In this document: positions 5,449 through 33,109 of the stretch, piece after piece
Layout of the letters: each line of letters begins with the position of its first letter
Numbering within the stretch: the first letter of the stretch is position 1
Assembly: GCA_034439575.1 (NCBI GenBank)
Contig: JAWXAQ010000022.1
Coordinates: forward strand, 1-64,000
Reading direction: 5' to 3'
Source: Leptospira sp.
GTDB lineage: Bacteria > Spirochaetota > Leptospiria > Leptospirales > Leptospiraceae
DNA length: 64,000 nt
Notes under the pieces: generated by a model
What the model was told of the DNA's origin: nothing
What the model saw: only the letters and a program-made list of their open reading frames with translations
Databases searched by the model: none
Translations under genes and position numbers: made by a program

Positions 5449-5694
5449 TGTTTAAAAGGTAATTATCGCAGGGTTTGAGAAAAACATTTTCAATGCTCTT
5501 AATTGTATTAAATTTTGCTATATAAATTTATTTCTACTTAAGTCTTTTTTTATGAATTATTAAAAAAAGTAAGATTGTTATGTGAAGTATGACAAATAGA
5601 ATCGATACTTTTTTTAAAAATGTTTTGGATTTCCCTTTAGGATTTTGAGTTAATTGCGATAATCTCTTTAGATACAAAATATCGCCGTACAGCT

Positions 5695-5725
5695 AAAAAG
5701 CCCGAGGATTTCTTCGGGCTTTTTT
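5695..5725. terminator. Rho-independent terminator downstream of metW (bidirectional architecture)
   Basis: AAAAAGCCCGA...TCGGGCTTTTT hairpin with A/T tracts on both sides. Confidence 0.85.
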
Positions 5726-5740
5726 GTGTAAACATTTCAC

Positions 5741-6364
5741 TTATTTAGATTCAATGACAAACAAAGTCAGCGTGGCAAAAAAATTGGGCCAAAATTTGAT
5801 TTCCTTTTTTTGATTAAAAGAAGCTGTTTTTAAGACTCTAATCTTCTCGACATCGCAAAAATCCGCAAAGTCTTTCGCCGATAAATAATGTAAGTTTGGA
5901 GTATCATACCAATGAAATGGCATAAGATCTGTAACAGGCGTCTTTCCACTTAGTAATATAGAAAATCGAATTTGCCAATGGGAAAAATTGGGGAATACAA
6001 TGATTACTTTTTTGCCAATACGTAGGCATTCCTTTACAATTTGGCCAGGATTTAATGTCTGTTGTATGGTCTGATTTAGAATGACATAATGGAAACTTTT
6101 ATCAAGGTGATGTTTTAATCCATCATCAATATCACCATGGTGAACATATAATCCTCGTTTGACGCACTGTATGACACAAGAGTCATCTTTTTCAATACCT
6201 TGCACTCGCACGCCCTGTCTTTTTAAAAGTAACATGAGTTCACCGAAACCACATCCCAAATCCAAAACTCTTTCCCCTGGTTGGATTAACTTAGCGATAT
6301 AGGAAATATCAGGTCGATGTGTAAGGTCTATATCCAAAAAGGTTTTTTGCGCGGCTACGTTCAT
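5741..6364 (-). CDS. metW: Methionine biosynthesis protein MetW (SAM-dependent methyltransferase fold)
   Basis: VLDLGCGFG and WYDTPNLH motifs; directly downstream of metX. Confidence 0.92.
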
Positions 6365-28473: not shown

Positions 28474-28547
<74 letters not shown>

Positions 28548-28606
28548 TGAGATTTGTTTTCCCTTGACGTAAGCGGACTTCAAAAAATCATAACCTATAG
28601 CATTTT

Positions 28607-28690
28607 GCCTGGATGGTGGAATTGGTAGACACACAGGACTTAAAATCCTGTGGGAGTAATCCCGTGCGGGTTCGATTCCCGCTCCAGGTA
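28607..28690 (+). tRNA. tRNA-Leu(TAA)
   Basis: GCCTGGA/TCCAGGT acceptor stem, CAGGA-CTTAAAA-TCCTG anticodon arm, long variable arm; CCA not encoded. Confidence 0.97.
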
Positions 28691-28691
28691 T

Positions 28692-28843
28692 GGAACCCTA
28701 ACGACTGCGAGTATCAGAAATGCTAGCGACCCATAGAGAGCGTAAGCATTTCTCTTCGGACAGGATTCCGAAGCAACGAGCAGGACGGGCGAAAACTAAA
28801 AGCCAGCAAGTAAGTTAGTTTGAGCAATTCCCGTTTCAGGAAT
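28692..28843 (+). repeat. tRNA-linked hairpin cassette ending in a degenerate copy of the tRNA-Leu 3' end
   Basis: IRs AGAAATGCT/AGCATTTCT, CTTCGGA/TCCGAAG and AAACTAA/TTAGTTT; 28827-28843 matches 28675-28691 at 14 of 17 positions. Confidence 0.65.
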
Positions 28844-28996
28844 CATTCCAAATGACCGCTTCAGAATTTTCTCTAAATTTTATTCCTTTAACCTAATTCC
28901 CAAAAATCAAAATTCTCGTAACCAGTAGGGATCATCTGCATTTCTCTGCACTCATCCTCTTCGAGTCAATTCCATAATTCGTCCTCTAATGTATTC

Positions 28997-29491
28997 TTGG
29001 GCACCTCGGATGTGTTATATGGACATACATTTAGTTCGCTGACCCGATCCCGCTCTCCGCTTCAATCGTGCAATCCTTGTTCCCATCTCGGGGCTGTCTC
29101 ACCTCCGTGTTCGAATGCCCCGTTACGCCCATCCCTGGGCTTCACCACCGATGGAAACAAGGTTTGCTTGTCCTGGGAAAGTTCGAATACGATAATCTAT
29201 ACTAATACTTTGGGCACCTCGGATATGTTATATGGACATACATTTAGTTCGGTGACTCGATCCCGCTCTCCGCTTCAATCGTGCAAACCTTGTTCCCATC
29301 TCCCTTCCCTCTCACCTCCGTGCTCGAAGGAAGGACTTCGACATCCATGTCTCCGTTACCGATGGAAACAAGGTTTGTTTGTCCTGGGAAAGATCGAATA
29401 CGATAATCTATACTAATACTTTAGGCACCTCGGATGTGTTATATGAAAATACATTTAGTTCGGTGACACGATCCCGCTCTCCGCTTCAATC
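28997..29491. repeat. Tandem array of ~212-bp structured units (two full, one partial)
   Basis: Units start at 28997, 29210 and 29421 (periods 213 and 211); near-identical flanks; internal 18-bp IR enclosing covarying hairpins. Confidence 0.92.
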
Positions 29492-29552
29492 TTTCGCATA
29501 ATGCTCGCTATTTAGATTTTATCACTTTGTGAAAGGATTTCCGCTTCGATCG
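29469..29552. repeat. REP-like palindromic element (CTCCGCTTCAATCTTTCG...GAAAGGATTTCCGCTTCGATC type)
   Basis: CGATC/GATCG outer stem, AATCTTTCGCA/TGTGAAAGGATT inner stem, TCCGCT on both arms. Resembles a dispersed Leptospira repeat as I recall it (not verified). Confidence 0.6.
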
Positions 29553-29665
29553 GTGGTGTGGGGGGAACTGCCAGTCATGAAACAAGAAATTAATTATGTC
29601 ACAAATATTTCTTTCTGTTCGACCAAATCATTCGTGATAGTAGTTTTTTCTAGGCTAAGTTCAGA

Positions 29666-29926
29666 TTAATATCTCATTACTTTTGTTACATATTTTATAA
29701 AAAAATGGAGTATCCCGAATGTTAAAAAAAATACCGGAAAAAAACGAATAAATAAATTTAACAAAAATATAGCTATAGATAATAAATCAGTATTCCCGTC
29801 TCGATTCCAAAATTCCATCGGATTCTGTTCAATTGTAATTAAACAAAATATAATTGAGACTATTATTGAGACAGTGGCAGCCAAATATAGAGGAATTTTG
29901 AATATTTTCCAAAATTTATTTCTCAT
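29666..29926 (-). CDS. Small two-TM membrane protein (possible immunity-type protein)
   Basis: 86 aa, two hydrophobic helices, very AT-rich. Confidence 0.6.
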   Translation of the reverse strand: MRNKFWKIFKIPLYLAATVSIIVSIIFCLITIEQNPMEFWNRDGNTDLLSIAIFLLNLFIRFFPVFFLTFGILHFFIKYVTKVMRY

Positions 29927-29936
29927 TTTCGTTTAT

Positions 29937-30182
29937 TTATTTTGTCCAAGGTTTTTCTTTAATAAGTCTTTCGACAAATACGCAGTAATCTTGTCCATTT
30001 AAATTAGTATTTCCTCCCATATCATTTGCACCTCTTGCTTTTTTCTGCAAAAAAATTGTCTTCTTTTTTGAAGACAGGATAACCCCAGACGCATTCATAC
30101 CATCACTGAAATTCCTAGTCATGGTATTTGCAGCATAGGCAATCCCATCTCGGATTCCATTTGCAAGTTTAGGGGCGAGTAG
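29937..30182 (-). pseudogene. Probable gene remnant (C-terminal fragment)
   Basis: The frame is open 20 codons upstream of the ATG at 30122 (LLAPKLANGIRDGIAYAANT) up to a TGA; no clear RBS; stop is 10 nt before the next gene. Confidence 0.4.
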
Positions 30183-30400
30183 TCATGAATGGTGCCTTTT
30201 ATCATATAAATATTCGTAGGATCAAATTTCCTTATTGACCTAAATCATCTATCAAGTGTTATGCCAATGCAATATTTGACAATAAATTACCATTGGTTAA
30301 AAACCCTTTTCTCATTTTCCCATACTAAAAATCTGTTCAGAATCTCATTTAACATAGGAATTTTTCTTGGCATTAGGAAATAAAAAGATAAAATTAATTT

Positions 30401-31231
30401 ATGAAATTAATTTACCTATTGATTTGTATATCTGTTTTCAATATTCATGCCTCTGAGTTAACAGATGCCATTCGATCAAATGATATATCGAAAGTTAAAA
30501 AATTGATTCAAACCAAAGTGAACTTGGAAGAAGTAGAGGCTGGTATTACCCCCTTAAGTCTTTCTGTAAAAGAAAATAAAAACGAAATCACCAAATTACT
30601 TTTAGAAGCAAACGCAAATCCAAATGTCAGTGATGAAAGATTCATAACACCTTTAATGTTGGCCGCCTGCAATCAAAATAGTGAAATTGTAAAACTCCTT
30701 ATCAAAAACAATGCTGATATTAACGCAAATACTCAGCATGAAACGATGTTAGTCAAAGCAACTCGCTGTAGTAATGCTGAAATCGTCCAGATCCTTTTGG
30801 ATTCAGGCATTGACTATGAAAAAAGAATCCGCACTAAATTGATTTCCCCTAGACCGCTCGTCGAAGCTCTAAAAGCAAAAAAATTTGATATAGCTGATGT
30901 ATTGCTTAATTTTAATTTTGATATAAATGAAGGGAGTTACAATGGAAATTTAAGTCCGCTTTGTTTTTTCTCTCAATATGGTGAAACGGAAGCTGTTTCT
31001 TATCTGATAAAAAAGAAAGCGAATCTAAATCACCTTGCCCAATTGAACTATACACCTTTGATGTTTGCGGCCACAGAAAATCACATTGAAGTTGTTAAAT
31101 TATTAATCGATGCAGGTGCTGATGTAAATATCGTTTCTAAAGATGACAATGAATCAACGGCACTTTCTTTGGCTCGTGAAAAAAAGCATGAAGAAATTAT
31201 TAAACTTTTACTTAATGCCAAAGCAAAATAA
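30401..31231 (+). CDS. Secreted ankyrin-repeat protein
   Basis: Signal peptide; repeated TPL(M)xA...VKLLIxxGADVN. Confidence 0.93.
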   Translation: MKLIYLLICISVFNIHASELTDAIRSNDISKVKKLIQTKVNLEEVEAGITPLSLSVKENKNEITKLLLEANANPNVSDERFITPLMLAACNQNSEIVKLLIKNNADINANTQHETMLVKATRCSNAEIVQILLDSGIDYEKRIRTKLISPRPLVEALKAKKFDIADVLLNFNFDINEGSYNGNLSPLCFFSQYGETEAVSYLIKKKANLNHLAQLNYTPLMFAATENHIEVVKLLIDAGADVNIVSKDDNESTALSLAREKKHEEIIKLLLNAKAK

Positions 31232-31234
31232 GGA

Positions 31235-33109
31235 TCAGTCACAATTTGGATTCAAAGATATGATTGGTAAAATAGCATCCGTTTGGTTAGGAAAAAAATA
31301 ACGAATGCCTAGGTCATAAAATTTAATTTCTGAATCTGCCTTTATGCTTGGAATTGGTACTTGAATCAAATTGTTTCCCGAATTTAATTTTTCTTTAAAT
31401 ACATTGATCACTGTTTCGGAATGGGCTTTAAATTTTTGGTCTTGATCAAAACTATCTCTTTCTCTGAGTTCTATGTCTAAAGAATTTGGGTAATTATCAT
31501 TCACGTCTGTTGGAAGAGATATGTTTAAAAGCAAAGGATTTTCTCTTGGTATTTTATTCCCATTCAAATTTACTTTGTGGCTCAGACATCCTTCCAATTT
31601 AAAATAAAATTCTTTATTCTCCGTTAGGTGAATATTTTGAATATCCCCATTGATTGTTTTTTGTGCAATTGGTGAAAGTAAATTGTTTAGATCTCTAGTT
31701 CTGTGAATAAATAAATCTGATTCTTTGTTTTGAACTAAAGAAGAAATGGAATAGATTGAAATAATCAAAGGTAAGAGTATACATATTAATACAAAAAATT
31801 GAATTGGTTTAGATTTGGCTTTTTTAAGATTCAATCCAACGAGAAAGAGAAAGGTTAAATAAACTTCATCATCTAACAGAAAACATTGAAACATCCCAGC
31901 TATAAAGATGGCATAGATGCCTAAAAAAATTGGTAATTTATGTTTTGAATCGTTTAAATTCGTTATGATTATAAACCAATAATATAGAAAAATTCCAGAA
32001 CCTATGATTCCGCCTAAAATCAAAAAATGAATAAAATCATGATGTGCATGACCTTTGGGTGTAATTAGTATTTCATAATAGAGATAGGGTTTTTTCTCGA
32101 TTTGATCTATATAAGAGGTTTCAAAATATTTTGTATAATTGCCAGAACCTATACCAAATATTCGATTATTTTGAAATATTTCAACATTCGCTTTATGAAT
32201 CCATACCCTTTGGTTTTCTAAAGTTTGTTTCGCAAACAATTGTTCAATGCTCCTTCGAAACAACCAATTTGTTTGAAAAATGACAGCAATCAAAAATATT
32301 AAAATAGTAAATGAGAATATGAGAGTATACTTATGTTTTTTGAAAAGATTTAAACTTGATTTAGGTTTATATAATAATATATATGCGGTGATAAGGCCAA
32401 TCCAGATAGATCGACTCTGGTTCAATAATAAAACAAGTAATCCTAAAATGGAGTATATTCCAAAAATAATTAAAGGAAATTTATTAAATTTTTTAGAATG
32501 TAAATGTAGTCTTAACAATCGATAAAAATGAAACCAAACAGCAGGTAAAAATAAAGCGAGTAAACCCCCATATGTTAGGTGAGTATTTTGGATTCCAATG
32601 GGAAGGTATATCGCTAAATCCCAGAAATCAAGAAAGGCTATTTGATGCGGTAATCTTCTACCAATCAAAAATTGGAATCCATCCATAACGAATGTCGAGA
32701 TTCGATAAGGAAAAAAAATAGAAATACAACCGAAGGTGATAAGTAAGAGAGAAGCGAATTTTAGGTGTGTTTTTAATTTTGTTTTTTGGGCAATGGAAAA
32801 TCCACTAGTGGGAAGTAAAATGAGTAACATCCAAATATCGCCAAATTCCGATTTTAACATCTTCTTCCCGAATGAATATGGACTTTCGCAAGACTGGAAA
32901 GCTGAGGATATAAGGATTAAAATATAAAGACTAAAGCCTACCCAAAAAAGTCTGGGAAAGTCCTTGAAATTTGGTCTCTTGAAAATGAAATAGCAAAGTA
33001 TGGATAGAACGGCAAAAAACTGTGAAAGTGTGACGGAAAGGATCGCCGAATATACATATAGGACGAGCAATAAAAAATCAAAATTTTTAAACGAAATCTT
33101 ACTGCCCAT
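31235..33109 (-). CDS. O-antigen ligase (Wzy_C/WaaL) family membrane protein
   Basis: Multiple TM helices; QSRS, FGIGSGNY and HAHHD motifs. Confidence 0.85.
   Translation of the reverse strand: MGSKISFKNFDFLLLVLYVYSAILSVTLSQFFAVLSILCYFIFKRPNFKDFPRLFWVGFSLYILILISSAFQSCESPYSFGKKMLKSEFGDIWMLLILLPTSGFSIAQKTKLKTHLKFASLLLITFGCISIFFPYRISTFVMDGFQFLIGRRLPHQIAFLDFWDLAIYLPIGIQNTHLTYGGLLALFLPAVWFHFYRLLRLHLHSKKFNKFPLIIFGIYSILGLLVLLLNQSRSIWIGLITAYILLYKPKSSLNLFKKHKYTLIFSFTILIFLIAVIFQTNWLFRRSIEQLFAKQTLENQRVWIHKANVEIFQNNRIFGIGSGNYTKYFETSYIDQIEKKPYLYYEILITPKGHAHHDFIHFLILGGIIGSGIFLYYWFIIITNLNDSKHKLPIFLGIYAIFIAGMFQCFLLDDEVYLTFLFLVGLNLKKAKSKPIQFFVLICILLPLIISIYSISSLVQNKESDLFIHRTRDLNNLLSPIAQKTINGDIQNIHLTENKEFYFKLEGCLSHKVNLNGNKIPRENPLLLNISLPTDVNDNYPNSLDIELRERDSFDQDQKFKAHSETVINVFKEKLNSGNNLIQVPIPSIKADSEIKFYDLGIRYFFPNQTDAILPIISLNPNCD

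What the first reader, a model, noticed from the sequence alone, without database searches (positions are those of the whole stretch)
29088..29360. Conserved loops of the repeat cores read as CsrA/RsmA-type ANGGAN hexaloops on the minus strand
Seen: on the minus strand each full unit has two hairpins, ACACGGAGGU and CCAGGGAUGG in unit 1, GCACGGAGGU and ACAUGGAUGU in unit 2. Established: the CsrA/RsmE recognition element is (A/U)CANGGANG(U/A) in a hairpin loop, a CsrA dimer binds two such sites, and Leptospira encodes CsrA. I know of no described CsrB/RsmZ-like sponge RNA in spirochaetes. A C-A mismatch in the outer stem of both units becomes a G-U pair on the minus strand, which fits that orientation. 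Inference: each unit may be a two-site CsrA-binding module and the array a CsrA-titrating RNA.
Basis: partly seen in the sequence, partly recalled or inferred. Interest (0 to 1): 0.8.

Follow-up and report, generated by a model that had tools for sequence, protein, structure and literature searches.

The report
Dispersed twin GGA-loop hairpin repeat
The flagged hairpins are real and belong to a Y-shaped, about 100-base repeat scattered through this spirochaete genome, a divergent relative of the known but untested TwoAYGGAY motif, whose two loops look like docking sites for the regulator CsrA.

Summary
On the minus strand, 29065-29173 and 29278-29384 each fold into an 18-bp basal stem carrying two hairpins with loops C-A(N)GGA(N)-G.

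It is not a one-off sRNA gene. This element ("H") occurs at 30 places in the genome, clustered in variable regions. It often lies 80-84 nt from a Flavo-1 (RF01705) repeat.

Stems covary freely while GGA stays in both loops in 54 of 57 copies from several spirochaete genomes.

A model built from the spirochaete copies finds 30 and 55 full-length copies in an Oscillospiraceae MAG and a gammaproteobacterial MAG. Rfam's TwoAYGGAY model (Csr/Rsm clan) gives sub-threshold matches exactly on such copies.

The window's array lies in a 2.7-kb insertion beside tRNA-Leu that three congeners lack.

csrA is present here and in 13 of 15 other carriers tested. Transcription and binding are untested.

Verdict: a new spirochaete variant of the TwoAYGGAY-like dispersed repeat. 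CsrA docking is plausible; a dedicated CsrB-like sponge gene is unlikely. The scan has noted TwoAYGGAY-like repeats before, on other DNA.

The parts
29278..29384 (-). H copy 2: 18-bp basal stem, hairpin 2 (GAC-AUGGAU-GUC, + strand 29340-29351) and hairpin 1 (tip GC-ACGGAG-GU, + strand about 29313-29323)
   Evidence: Model R1 scores 121.7 bits. Fold energy is -46.2 kcal/mol, z -6.57.
29065..29173 (-). H copy 1: same architecture with covarying inner stems (GCCC-AGGGAU-GGGC at 29127-29140; GGGGC/GCCCC stem; tip AC-ACGGAG-GU about 29100-29109)
   Evidence: Model R1 scores 101.1 bits. Fold energy is -50.0 kcal/mol, z -6.44.
29466..29561 (-). Complete Flavo-1 (RF01705) hairpin at the 5' end of the array on the minus strand, 82 nt upstream of H copy 2
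   Evidence: Rfam scores 55.5 bits against a gathering score of 42.
29174..29277 (-). Inter-H segment: 3' half of a Flavo-1-like hairpin (GAUUGAAGCGGAGAGCGGGAUCG), then the recurring CCGAGGUGCCC module and the UUCGAUCUUUCC linker
   Evidence: Direct repeat family D1. The same modules flank H copies elsewhere in the genome.
29385..29465 (-). Second copy of the linker and CCGAGGUGCC module, between Flavo-1 and H copy 2
   Evidence: Repeat D1 copy 29358-29491 is 95% identical to 29147-29280.
28997..29064 (-). Third, partial copy of the Flavo-1 3' half plus CCGAGGUGCCC module, at the 3' end of the array on the minus strand
   Evidence: 28997-29067 matches 29210-29280 and 29421-29491 at 88-93% identity.
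28606..28691 (+). tRNA-Leu(taa), the conserved left border of the insertion that holds the array (context)
   Evidence: ARAGORN and Rfam. Synteny breaks after 28690 in three congeners.

Best explanation
The flagged loops are the tips of a roughly 100-nt, Y-shaped structured repeat, here called H. It has a basal stem of about 18 bp whose sequence varies freely, purine-rich junctions (CGG-NNN-CGGAG ... CGGAG ... GAG), and two hairpins with loops C-A(N)GGA(N)-G.

H is a spirochaete lineage of a cross-phylum, multi-copy family that behaves like a mobile element. Its closest catalogued relative is the TwoAYGGAY motif (Rfam RF01731, Csr/Rsm clan). In this genus H assembles with Flavo-1 repeats into mosaics. 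The window's array (Flavo-1, H, half Flavo-1, H, half Flavo-1 on the minus strand) is one such mosaic, and it sits in a lineage-specific insertion next to tRNA-Leu.

Most likely mechanism: wherever a copy is transcribed on its folding strand, the two GGA loops, 27 nt apart, dock one CsrA dimer. Copies would then act as small CsrA decoys, or bring the host transcript under CsrA control, as has been proposed for TwoAYGGAY.

Shown here: the structure, the folding strand, covariation, loop conservation, dispersal, the Flavo-1 coupling, the insertion, and co-occurrence with csrA.

Inferred, not shown: transcription, CsrA binding, and any titration effect.
For: Structure and strand.

Dispersal:
- 29 places in the own genome with model R1, plus one more with R2.
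- Hits in 15 of 36 other genomes of the genus with R1, with 1-21 matches each.
- Hits in 4 of 4 genomes of the genus in the phylum draw with the more sensitive R2. Two of these were negative with R1.

Loop conservation against variable stems: GGA is in hairpin 2 in 55 of 57 copies, in hairpin 1 in 56 of 57, and in both in 54 of 57. There are 40 distinct outer 5' arms.

Distant spirochaetes keep both loops while rebuilding the stems. G110 has 4 copies and G068 has 1. Hairpin 2 reads UUUUGGC-AGGGAU-GCCAAAA in one G110 copy and CCCACACUUAC-AGGAU-GUAAGUGUAGGG in another.

Cross-phylum family:
- An H-core pattern hit 86 stretches in named records of Leptospira and many other phyla.
- R2 run on 80 of those 86 gave 43 matches, full-length in Oscillospiraceae and Gammaproteobacteria MAGs.
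- R2 found 30 and 55 matches in two such genomes.

Link to TwoAYGGAY: RF01731 matches over its whole model at 24.5 bits (L149) and 24.1 bits (L137). Its only hit in the own genome (21.9 bits) falls exactly on an H copy on the folding strand. RF01731 and PrrB_RsmZ share clan CL00106.

Literature:
- TwoAYGGAY is described as two hairpins on a common basal stem, multi-copy, in doublets, with REP arrays at a fixed position. It has been proposed as Csr/Rsm sponges with mobile-like expansion (bioRxiv 10.64898/2026.09.22.753630, sections 8 and 11).
- CsrA-motif matches in TwoAYGGAY were reported in PMC4333381 (passages).
- Leptospira biflexa CsrA binds a GGA hexaloop upstream of flaB3 (ACACAGGAGGGT), and a GGA-to-AAA change abolishes binding (PMC8668096, passages). 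H hairpin-1 tips read ACACGGAGGU or ACAGGAGGU.

csrA is present in the own genome, in 5 of 5 spirochaete genomes tested, 4 of which carry H, and in 8 of 10 non-spirochaete carriers.

Insertion: in three congeners tRNA-Leu lies about 215 nt from the Wzy_C gene region, against 2.7 kb here.
Against: No transcript evidence. No RNA run holds the locus, and the laid contigs cover almost only the tRNAs. Promoter-like and terminator-like sites are at chance level, and the only promoter-like sites inside the units are on the plus strand.

Orientation relative to crudely called neighbouring genes is unbiased: 18 tandem-sense against 18 tandem-antisense. Many copies would therefore be read on the wrong strand unless they carry their own promoter.

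H was not found in 10 genomes of the sister genus with R2 under the stricter filters, and in 21 of 36 congeners with R1. The one sister-genus genome tested, G072, has csrA. H is therefore dispensable for Csr function.

The window's H misses Rfam's TwoAYGGAY threshold by far: no hit at E up to 10, and the best in the genome is 21.9 bits against 43.

Two of 10 non-spirochaete carriers showed no csrA; both are small MAGs.

The cross-phylum pattern required GGA by construction. therefore say nothing independent about loop conservation.

G-T wobbles and hairpins would serve a single-stranded DNA substrate just as well.
Confidence: 0.55

Rival explanations
1. DNA-level mobile repeat only, of REP/BIME or MITE type. 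The hairpin forms in single-stranded DNA and the conserved junction and loop bases are the recognition site of a transposase or recombinase. The likeness to CsrA sites is coincidental.
For: - Multi-copy, patchy and clustered distribution in variable regions.
- Mosaic assembly with Flavo-1 at a fixed 80-84 nt spacing in 7 cases.
- Truncated or nested copies.
- No orientation bias relative to genes.
- The array lies in an insertion next to a tRNA gene.
- Copies lie next to tmRNA or tRNA genes in other records.
- Basal stems up to about 45 bp, resembling terminal inverted repeats, in other phyla.
- Flavo-1 hits in Flavobacterium psychrophilum lie sense or antisense of transcripts, and many are untranscribed (PMC9723704, passage).
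- The GCGGA(R) motif is shared by Flavo-1 internal loops and H junctions.
Against: - In a classical MITE the terminal repeats are conserved and the interior drifts. Here it is the reverse.
- No Y1/RAYT transposase in this genome, which is 99.98% complete.
- The one adjacent Xer-like recombinase is single-copy.
- No target-site duplication was seen by eye.
- The bases kept across phyla are those of the CsrA consensus, and carriers nearly always have csrA.
Confidence: 0.2
2. One reading: the 29000-29561 array is a dedicated CsrB/RsmZ-like sponge sRNA gene of this spirochaete, with its own promoter and terminator, tuned to titrate CsrA.
For: - Four strict CA(N)GGA(N)G sites and 19 GGA on the minus strand in 565 nt, against a background of 8.7 +/- 3.3. 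The locus is among the five densest in the genome.
- csrA is present.
- No csrB or csrC is known in Leptospira (PMC8668096, passage).
- In distant spirochaetes, H copies stand between a promoter-like TTGTCA box and a U-run (my reading of the sequence).
Against: - The locus is not conserved. None of 40 congeners has the array at the tRNA-Cys/tRNA-Leu locus, and three show the uninterrupted site.
- The same module occurs at 30 places.
- No promoter or terminator stands out.
- No U-run follows the basal stem in this genus.
Confidence: 0.1
3. Ribosome decoy or Shine-Dalgarno mimic. The GGAGG-type loops pair with the 3' end of 16S rRNA. Read on the plus strand, the UCC-rich loops would instead act as anti-Shine-Dalgarno regulators.
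For: Hairpin-1 tips often read ACGGAGGU or AGGAGGU, and the plus strand reads UCACCUCC.
Against: - Only GGA is invariant. Many tips are AGGAU, AGGAA, AAGGAC or AUGGAU, and hairpin 2 is rarely GGAGG.
- G-U against A-C counts (96 against 26) and fold energies favour the GGA strand.
Confidence: 0.05
4. Integron-like attC sites: H marks cassette boundaries recombined by a tyrosine recombinase as folded bottom strands.
For: On contig C11 a tyrosine recombinase gene ends 3 nt before an H copy. Four further H copies in the same orientation follow among toxin-antitoxin gene pairs, with the folding strand antisense to those genes.
Against: - The recombinase scores as Xer-type (NF040815, 231 bits). It scores 162 bits against a cut-off of 265 for integron integrase.
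- It is single-copy.
- In other arrays the folding strand is sense to the cassette genes.
- The conserved part is apical rather than the stem base, and I saw no extrahelical bases.
- Integrons among spirochaetes are reported only in Treponema (PMC3607928, abstract in the search listing).
Confidence: 0.03

Closest known systems
TwoAYGGAY RNA motif (Rfam RF01731, clan CL00106; Weinberg 2010 PMC2864571; Gardner & Eldai PMC4333381; bioRxiv 10.64898/2026.09.22.753630)
   Same: [quoted passage not shown]
- Multi-copy, with very variable copy number.
- Local clusters.
- Fixed-position association with another repeat family: REP in Pseudomonas, Flavo-1 here.
- Tandem G-A in one stem (UC-GA-RC / GY-GA-GA in the own-genome type).
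- Proposed, but untested, CsrA/Rsm binding.
- RF01731 gives whole-model sub-threshold matches on H-type copies.
   Different: - Scores of 21.9-24.5 bits are far below the gathering score of 43, and there is no hit on the window's own copies.
- The second loop is usually ACGGAG or AGGAG rather than AYGGAY.
- The conserved CGGAG junction repeats and the coupling to Flavo-1 appear in none of the passages I read on TwoAYGGAY.
- The host phylum is Spirochaetota. The motif's listed taxa are Gammaproteobacteria, Clostridiales and human gut.
CsrB / RsmY / RsmZ sponge sRNAs
   Same: Several GGA motifs are displayed in hairpin loops and in single-stranded junctions, about 5 per 100 nt in H. The loop consensus matches the CsrA site quoted in PMC8668096 (RUACARGGAUGU, with GGA in a hairpin loop).
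   Different: Those are single or few conserved, syntenic genes with their own regulated promoters and terminators. H is a dispersed repeat with 30 copies, no conserved locus and no evident promoter.
Flavo-1 RNA motif (RF01705)
   Same: One full member ends the array (55.5 bits). Both are dispersed hairpin repeats in this genome: 32 Flavo-1 hits, 23 of them at or above the gathering score. Both share a GCGGA(R) motif in unpaired positions.
   Different: Flavo-1 is a single long hairpin with symmetric internal loops and no GGA terminal loops. 22 of its 32 hits are not near an H copy.
REP/BIME mosaics and MITEs (for example Correia elements; recalled from general knowledge)
   Same: Short structured extragenic repeats that combine into mosaics, cluster in intergenic and variable regions, and vary in copy number between relatives.
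   Different: No RAYT transposase in the genome. The terminal stem is variable and the interior is conserved, the opposite of a MITE. No target duplication was seen.

Membership tests
TwoAYGGAY (RF01731) | [quoted passage not shown] | tested here: met
   Consensus fold and pair counts give 30 pairs in 3 helices with 94.5% of cells paired. Single-sequence folds agree.
TwoAYGGAY (RF01731) | Each terminal loop contains AYGGAY | tested here: inconclusive
   Window copy 2 has AUGGAU (fits) and ACGGAG (last base is a purine). Copy 1 has AGGGAU and ACGGAG. Across 57 copies GGA is present in 55 and 56 of the two loops, but the flanking bases vary.
TwoAYGGAY (RF01731) | Score at or above Rfam's gathering threshold (43 bits) | tested here: not met
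   No RF01731 hit at E up to 10 on window 28690-29700. The best in the own genome is 21.9 bits, at an H copy. Related copies in other phyla score 24.5 and 24.1 bits.
TwoAYGGAY (RF01731) | Multi-copy, variable copy number, local clusters, fixed-position partner repeats (as described in bioRxiv 10.64898/2026.09.22.753630, section 8) | tested here: met
   30 places in the own genome and 0-21 matches in congeners. Clusters of up to 3 copies in 700 nt. Flavo-1 lies at 80-84 nt in 7 cases.
CsrB/RsmZ-type CsrA sponge sRNA | Multiple GGA motifs exposed in loops or single strands | tested here: met
   Two loop GGAs plus junction GGAs per H. 19 GGA and 4 strict sites on the minus strand of the array.
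CsrB/RsmZ-type CsrA sponge sRNA | Discrete, expressed transcript with its own promoter and terminator | not testable with these tools
   No RNA holder is listed. The laid contigs are uninformative. The promoter and terminator scan is at chance level.
CsrB/RsmZ-type CsrA sponge sRNA | Conserved gene at a syntenic locus in relatives | tested here: not met
   The array is absent at the tRNA-Cys/tRNA-Leu locus in 40 congeners, and three show the uninterrupted site.
CsrB/RsmZ-type CsrA sponge sRNA | GGA-dependent binding of CsrA | not testable with these tools
   Only co-occurrence is available: csrA is present in the own genome and in 13 of 15 other genomes tested, 14 of which carry the element.
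Flavo-1 (RF01705), for 29466-29561 only | Rfam gathering score (42 bits) | tested here: met
   55.5 bits over the whole model on the minus strand.
Integron attC array | Integron integrase (IntI) next to the array | tested here: not met
   There is none in the window. The recombinase beside the C11 array reaches 162 bits against a cut-off of 265 for TIGR02249, and passes a Xer-type model instead.
REP/REPIN | Cognate RAYT (Y1 transposase) in the genome | tested here: not met
   PF01797 has no match in the own genome, which is 99.98% complete.
MITE | Conserved terminal inverted repeats with target-site duplication, and empty sites in relatives | tested here: inconclusive
   A stem resembling inverted repeats is present, but its sequence varies between subfamilies. 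No duplication was seen by eye. Relatives are too diverged (about 70% identity) to show empty sites for single copies. The whole 2.7-kb segment holding the array is missing in three congeners.

The most novel reading that the evidence does not exclude
H and its TwoAYGGAY-like relatives form one cross-phylum class of mobile RNA modules that carry ready-made CsrA docking sites. By spreading, they buffer free CsrA or place accessory genes under the host's Csr regulon. The accessory genes seen here are toxin-antitoxin pairs and toxin/immunity-like cassettes. Flavo-1 and REP-type hairpins would be their mobilisation partners. This would make them the first RNA-type CsrA antagonists in spirochaetes, where only FliW is assumed to play that role.
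Probability: 0.2. Interest if true: 0.8.

Novelty: new variant of a known kind. Interest (0 to 1): 0.45.

Why it matters
If CsrA binds these modules, spirochaetes would have RNA antagonists or targets of CsrA besides FliW. The TwoAYGGAY-like family would then be a mobile way of wiring genes into, or buffering, a global post-transcriptional regulator in many phyla.

Even without that, three results stand:
- They give the uncharacterised Flavo-1 motif a concrete partner and a repeat-like behaviour in Leptospira.
- They extend TwoAYGGAY-like elements to Spirochaetota and, by pattern matches, to several little-studied phyla.
- They provide a covariance model and alignments that make the CsrA hypothesis directly testable in a tractable saprophytic Leptospira.

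Tried and rejected
- **RNA evidence.** The look-up of sequencing runs listed no RNA holder. The four wastewater runs, laid as contigs, covered almost only the tRNAs plus a few related repeat pieces, with no strand information.
- **Integron reading.** I considered it seriously because of the C11 recombinase and the toxin-antitoxin cassettes. I rejected it for the reasons given under the rival explanations.
- **RAYT/REPIN reading.** No Y1 transposase.
- **Empty-site search for a single H copy.** Congeners align only over the flanking gene at about 70-74% identity, so this was uninformative.
- **Promoter and terminator scan.** At chance level.
- **Sigma-54-like reading of the GGCAC module on the plus strand.** The spacing does not fit (by eye).
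- **Plus-strand ORF 28997-29416 (139 aa).** No Pfam family. I treat it as a by-product of the repeat.
- **A loose regular expression for H copies.** It returned 242 mostly spurious places, so I used the BLAST and covariance-model lists instead. An earlier MAFFT run timed out.
- **Alignment A3.** It contained 9 reverse-strand duplicates (27-31 bits), which I dropped before the counts.
- **R2 on three other-phylum genomes that match the pattern (G216-G218).** It found nothing at E up to 0.001. Their copies have much longer stems.
- **Earlier scan notes by sequence or place.** None.
- **Complex prediction, structure tools and protein-database searches.** Not used, because they cannot test RNA-protein binding.
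Full report
**1. What is in the sequence**

Downstream of tRNA-Cys (28474-28547) and tRNA-Leu (28606-28691) lies a 2.3-unit tandem array of 211 nt at 29000-29491.

Each full unit holds an 18-bp inverted repeat, GCAAACCTTGTTCCCATC / GATGGAAACAAGGTTTGC, enclosing about 60 nt.

Rfam finds one known family. A complete Flavo-1 (RF01705) lies at 29466-29561 on the minus strand, at 55.5 bits against a gathering score of 42. It closes the array.

The rest of each unit is the 3' half of a Flavo-1-like hairpin plus two short recurring modules.

**2. The hairpin module is a dispersed repeat**

BLAST and a covariance model (R1, built from 23 own-genome copies) find the roughly 100-nt module, which I call H, at 29 places in the genome. 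A second model, R2, adds one more.

Copies cluster with a shared orientation inside each cluster:
- C11:41606-46563, behind a Xer-type tyrosine recombinase and among PIN-type toxin-antitoxin pairs.
- C35:32023-36938.
- C8:231401-234618.
- C30:143204-147057.

Neighbouring genes are accessory: a YhgA-like transposase, SH3 and M23-type proteins, and small lipoproteins.

14 of 30 H copies lie within 300 nt of one of the genome's 32 Flavo-1 hits. In seven of them the gap is 80-84 nt.

**3. Structure, strand and covariation**

On the 23 own-genome copies the three-helix structure pairs 94.5% of cells, against 42-52% when partners are slid. Nine pairs show double changes. No shuffle of 500 reaches the observed covariation score.

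The inner stems exist in alternative covarying versions:
- CCUUC/GAAGG against GGGGC/GCCCC.
- GAC-AUGGAU-GUC against GCC-AGGAY-GGC.

U-G pairs at fixed positions would be C-A on the plus strand. The minus strand also folds 5-8 kcal/mol better. Over 57 copies, G-U cells outnumber A-C cells 96 to 26 (that alignment was fitted to the model).

**4. Relatives in other spirochaetes**

R1 finds H in 15 of 36 other genomes of the genus, with 1-21 matches each, and in one genome of another family of the order. R2, built from 32 diverged hits, finds H in all 4 genomes of the genus in a phylum-wide draw. It finds none in 10 genomes of the sister genus. It also finds H in G110, from a distant family.

In the diverged copies the basal stem is entirely different in sequence but still paired: there are 40 distinct 5' arms among 57 copies. 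The junctions (CGG-NNN-CGGAG, CGGAG, GAG) and the two loops are kept.

After I dropped 9 reverse-strand duplicates from the 66 rows of alignment A3, the counts were:
- GGA in hairpin 2 in 55 of 57 copies.
- GGA in the hairpin-1 tip in 56 of 57.
- GGA in both in 54 of 57.
- Counted as distinct sequences, 24 of 26 and 18 of 19.

G110 has four copies in two subtypes, and G068 has one. Their hairpin-2 stems are rebuilt, but the AGGGAU or AGGAU loop stays.

**5. The family reaches far beyond spirochaetes and touches a known motif**

An H-core pattern, which by construction includes both GGA loops, matched 86 stretches of the species-representative genome collection. The records include:
- Named Leptospira (L. 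ilyithenensis, L. idonii, L. ognonensis).
- Several matches each in MAGs of Eiseniibacteriota, Oscillospiraceae, Gammaproteobacteria, Marinobacter, Eremiobacterota, Krumholzibacteriota, Planctomycetota and Acidobacteriota.

R2 run on 80 of the 86 stretches gave 43 matches, many covering the full model including a basal stem. It found 30 and 55 matches in one Oscillospiraceae and one gammaproteobacterial genome. Some versions in other phyla have basal stems of about 45 bp.

Rfam's TwoAYGGAY model aligns over its whole length to such copies at 24.5 and 24.1 bits. Its single hit in the window's genome, at 21.9 bits, is an H copy on the folding strand. All of these are below the gathering score of 43. 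TwoAYGGAY shares clan CL00106 with PrrB/RsmZ.

**6. What is in print**

- TwoAYGGAY was found in 2010 (PMC2864571; table row seen).
- Gardner and Eldai reported strong matches of a CsrA-site model to its two loops and proposed CsrA sequestration (PMC4333381, passages).
- A 2026 preprint describes it as two hairpins on a common basal stem with AYGGAY loops. It reports median copy numbers of 11-23 in Pseudomonas groups and up to 202 copies in one strain, frequent doublets, and REP arrays at a fixed position. It suggests multivalent Csr/Rsm sponges with mobile-element-like expansion, and says the link between the two is unresolved (bioRxiv 10.64898/2026.09.22.753630, sections 8 and 11 read).
- For Leptospira, PMC8668096 (passages) states that there are no csrB or csrC homologues and that fliW lies next to csrA. 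It shows that L. biflexa CsrA binds a GGA hexaloop upstream of flaB3 in a GGA-dependent way.
- That paper also cites one "CsrA-like ncRNA" predicted in L. biflexa (PMC4863578, passages). Its position is in a supplement that I could not open.
- Flavo-1 is listed among unannotated transcribed regions in two pathogenic Leptospira (bioRxiv 10.1101/2023.03.29.534852, passage).
- In F. psychrophilum, Flavo-1 hits lie sense or antisense of transcripts, or outside them (PMC9723704, passage).
- Searches for Flavo-1, Leptospira with CsrA, Leptospira with MITE, Leptospira with attC and integron and TwoAYGGAY turned up no description of this element in spirochaetes.

**7. Tests of the CsrA reading**

For:
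- The loop consensus C-A(N)GGA(N)-G fits the consensus quoted in PMC8668096.
- The varying positions are the N positions.
- The two GGAs are 27 nt apart.
- csrA is present in the own genome.
- csrA is present in 5 of 5 spirochaete genomes tested, four of them H carriers.
- csrA is present in 8 of 10 carriers from other phyla. The two without it are MAGs of 1.7 and 2.6 Mb.
- For scale, the tool's control set rings in 3 of 14 well-known genomes. That set is not a fair background.

Against, or missing:
- There are no RNA data.
- No promoter or terminator rises above chance.
- Orientation relative to neighbours is unbiased: among 85 places, 18 tandem-sense, 18 tandem-antisense, 12 convergent, 6 divergent, 12 with an open frame running through (8 on the same strand, 4 opposite) and 19 at contig or locus edges. 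Gene calls were crude.
- H is missing from many csrA-bearing relatives.

**8. The array's locus**

None of 40 congeners matches the array at the tRNA-Cys/tRNA-Leu locus. In three of them tRNA-Leu is followed after about 215 nt by the region of the Wzy_C-type gene. In the window that region starts 2.7 kb further on (28690 to 31421).

The array, two small unassigned ORFs and an ankyrin-repeat gene (30401-31231) therefore sit in a lineage-specific insertion. That fits a mobile repeat and does not fit a conserved regulator gene.

**9. Verdict**

It is wrong in treating the array as a dedicated sponge gene.

The element is best filed as a new spirochaete variant of the TwoAYGGAY-like dispersed structured repeat, coupled to Flavo-1. 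It works like a CsrA-site carrier on sequence grounds only.

My estimates:
- About 0.85 that it belongs to this repeat kind.
- About 0.5 that CsrA binds it in vitro.
- About 0.15-0.2 that it measurably titrates CsrA in the cell.

Earlier notes of this scan describe similar TwoAYGGAY-like repeats in other genomes, mostly Gammaproteobacteria. I reached the same reading from my own calls (81-93) before reading those notes.

Noticed in passing
window 28692-31420: About 2.7 kb between tRNA-Leu and the Wzy_C-type gene is missing in three congeners, where about 215 nt separate the two. Besides the repeat array, the segment holds two small minus-strand ORFs without any family (29666-29926, 29937-30122) and an ankyrin-repeat gene (30401-31231).
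   Followed up: partly
own genome, 32 places (for example C15:23186-23260, C16:173939-174038); window 29466-29561: Flavo-1 (RF01705) is itself a dispersed repeat here: 32 hits, 23 of them at or above the gathering score. 22 are not near an H copy. Where the two meet, the gap is 80-84 nt in seven cases. In locus L061 an H copy sits inside a Flavo-1-like hairpin.
   Followed up: partly
own genome C11:40691-46563 (locus L095): A single-copy Xer-type tyrosine recombinase gene ends 3 nt before an H copy. It is followed by PIN-type toxin-antitoxin pairs and small ORFs punctuated by four more H copies in the same orientation. This is an island that looks like a cassette array.
   Followed up: partly
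loci L062, L063, L064, L065, L067 (congeners G016, G031 and G035); own genome C30:143204-147057: Arrays of large proteins (some with an M23 peptidase domain), each followed by a small protein that looks like a lipoprotein or carries an SH3 domain. Each cassette is preceded by Flavo-1 plus H on the sense strand, and in several an open frame runs through H. They look like polymorphic toxin/immunity cassettes.
   Followed up: partly
L165:171-284 with tmRNA 276-627; L151:6005-6118 with tmRNA 5666-6014: In two Leptospirales MAG records an H-like copy abuts the 3' end of the tmRNA gene in convergent orientation. Other copies lie near tRNA genes (L125, L177, and the window itself).
   Followed up: no
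L109, L111, L114, L138, L141, L163 (records of other phyla): Hairpins of 150-190 nt with basal stems up to about 45 bp carry the same GCGGAGCC-AUGGAU-GGCGGAG core and a second or third GGA loop. One Eiseniibacteriota MAG alone gave more than a dozen pattern matches.
   Followed up: partly
own genome C8:231991-232023 and C7:101993-102016: Truncated pieces of one H subtype are joined through GAT(T/A) to a full H copy of the other subtype at two different loci. These are nested or recombined copies.
   Followed up: no
own genome, flanks of H at C11:41705-41840, C11:46559-46690, C28:55832-55960, C35:33400-33580 and others: Another recurring module of about 130 nt begins ...TTGTTAG... and ends ...TTTTATCGTATTGCGTAAAAC... 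It follows several H copies and is probably a further repeat family of the mosaic.
   Followed up: no
own genome C16:82956-83106, minus strand: A two-unit tandem repeat (period 132 nt) carries GUUC-AGGAA-GAAC hairpins. It is one of only five loci in the genome with four CA(N)GGA(N)G motifs in 565 nt. It is not an H copy.
   Followed up: no
window 28997-29416, plus strand: A 139-aa open frame runs through the repeat units. It has no Pfam family and is most likely a by-product of the repeat.
   Followed up: partly
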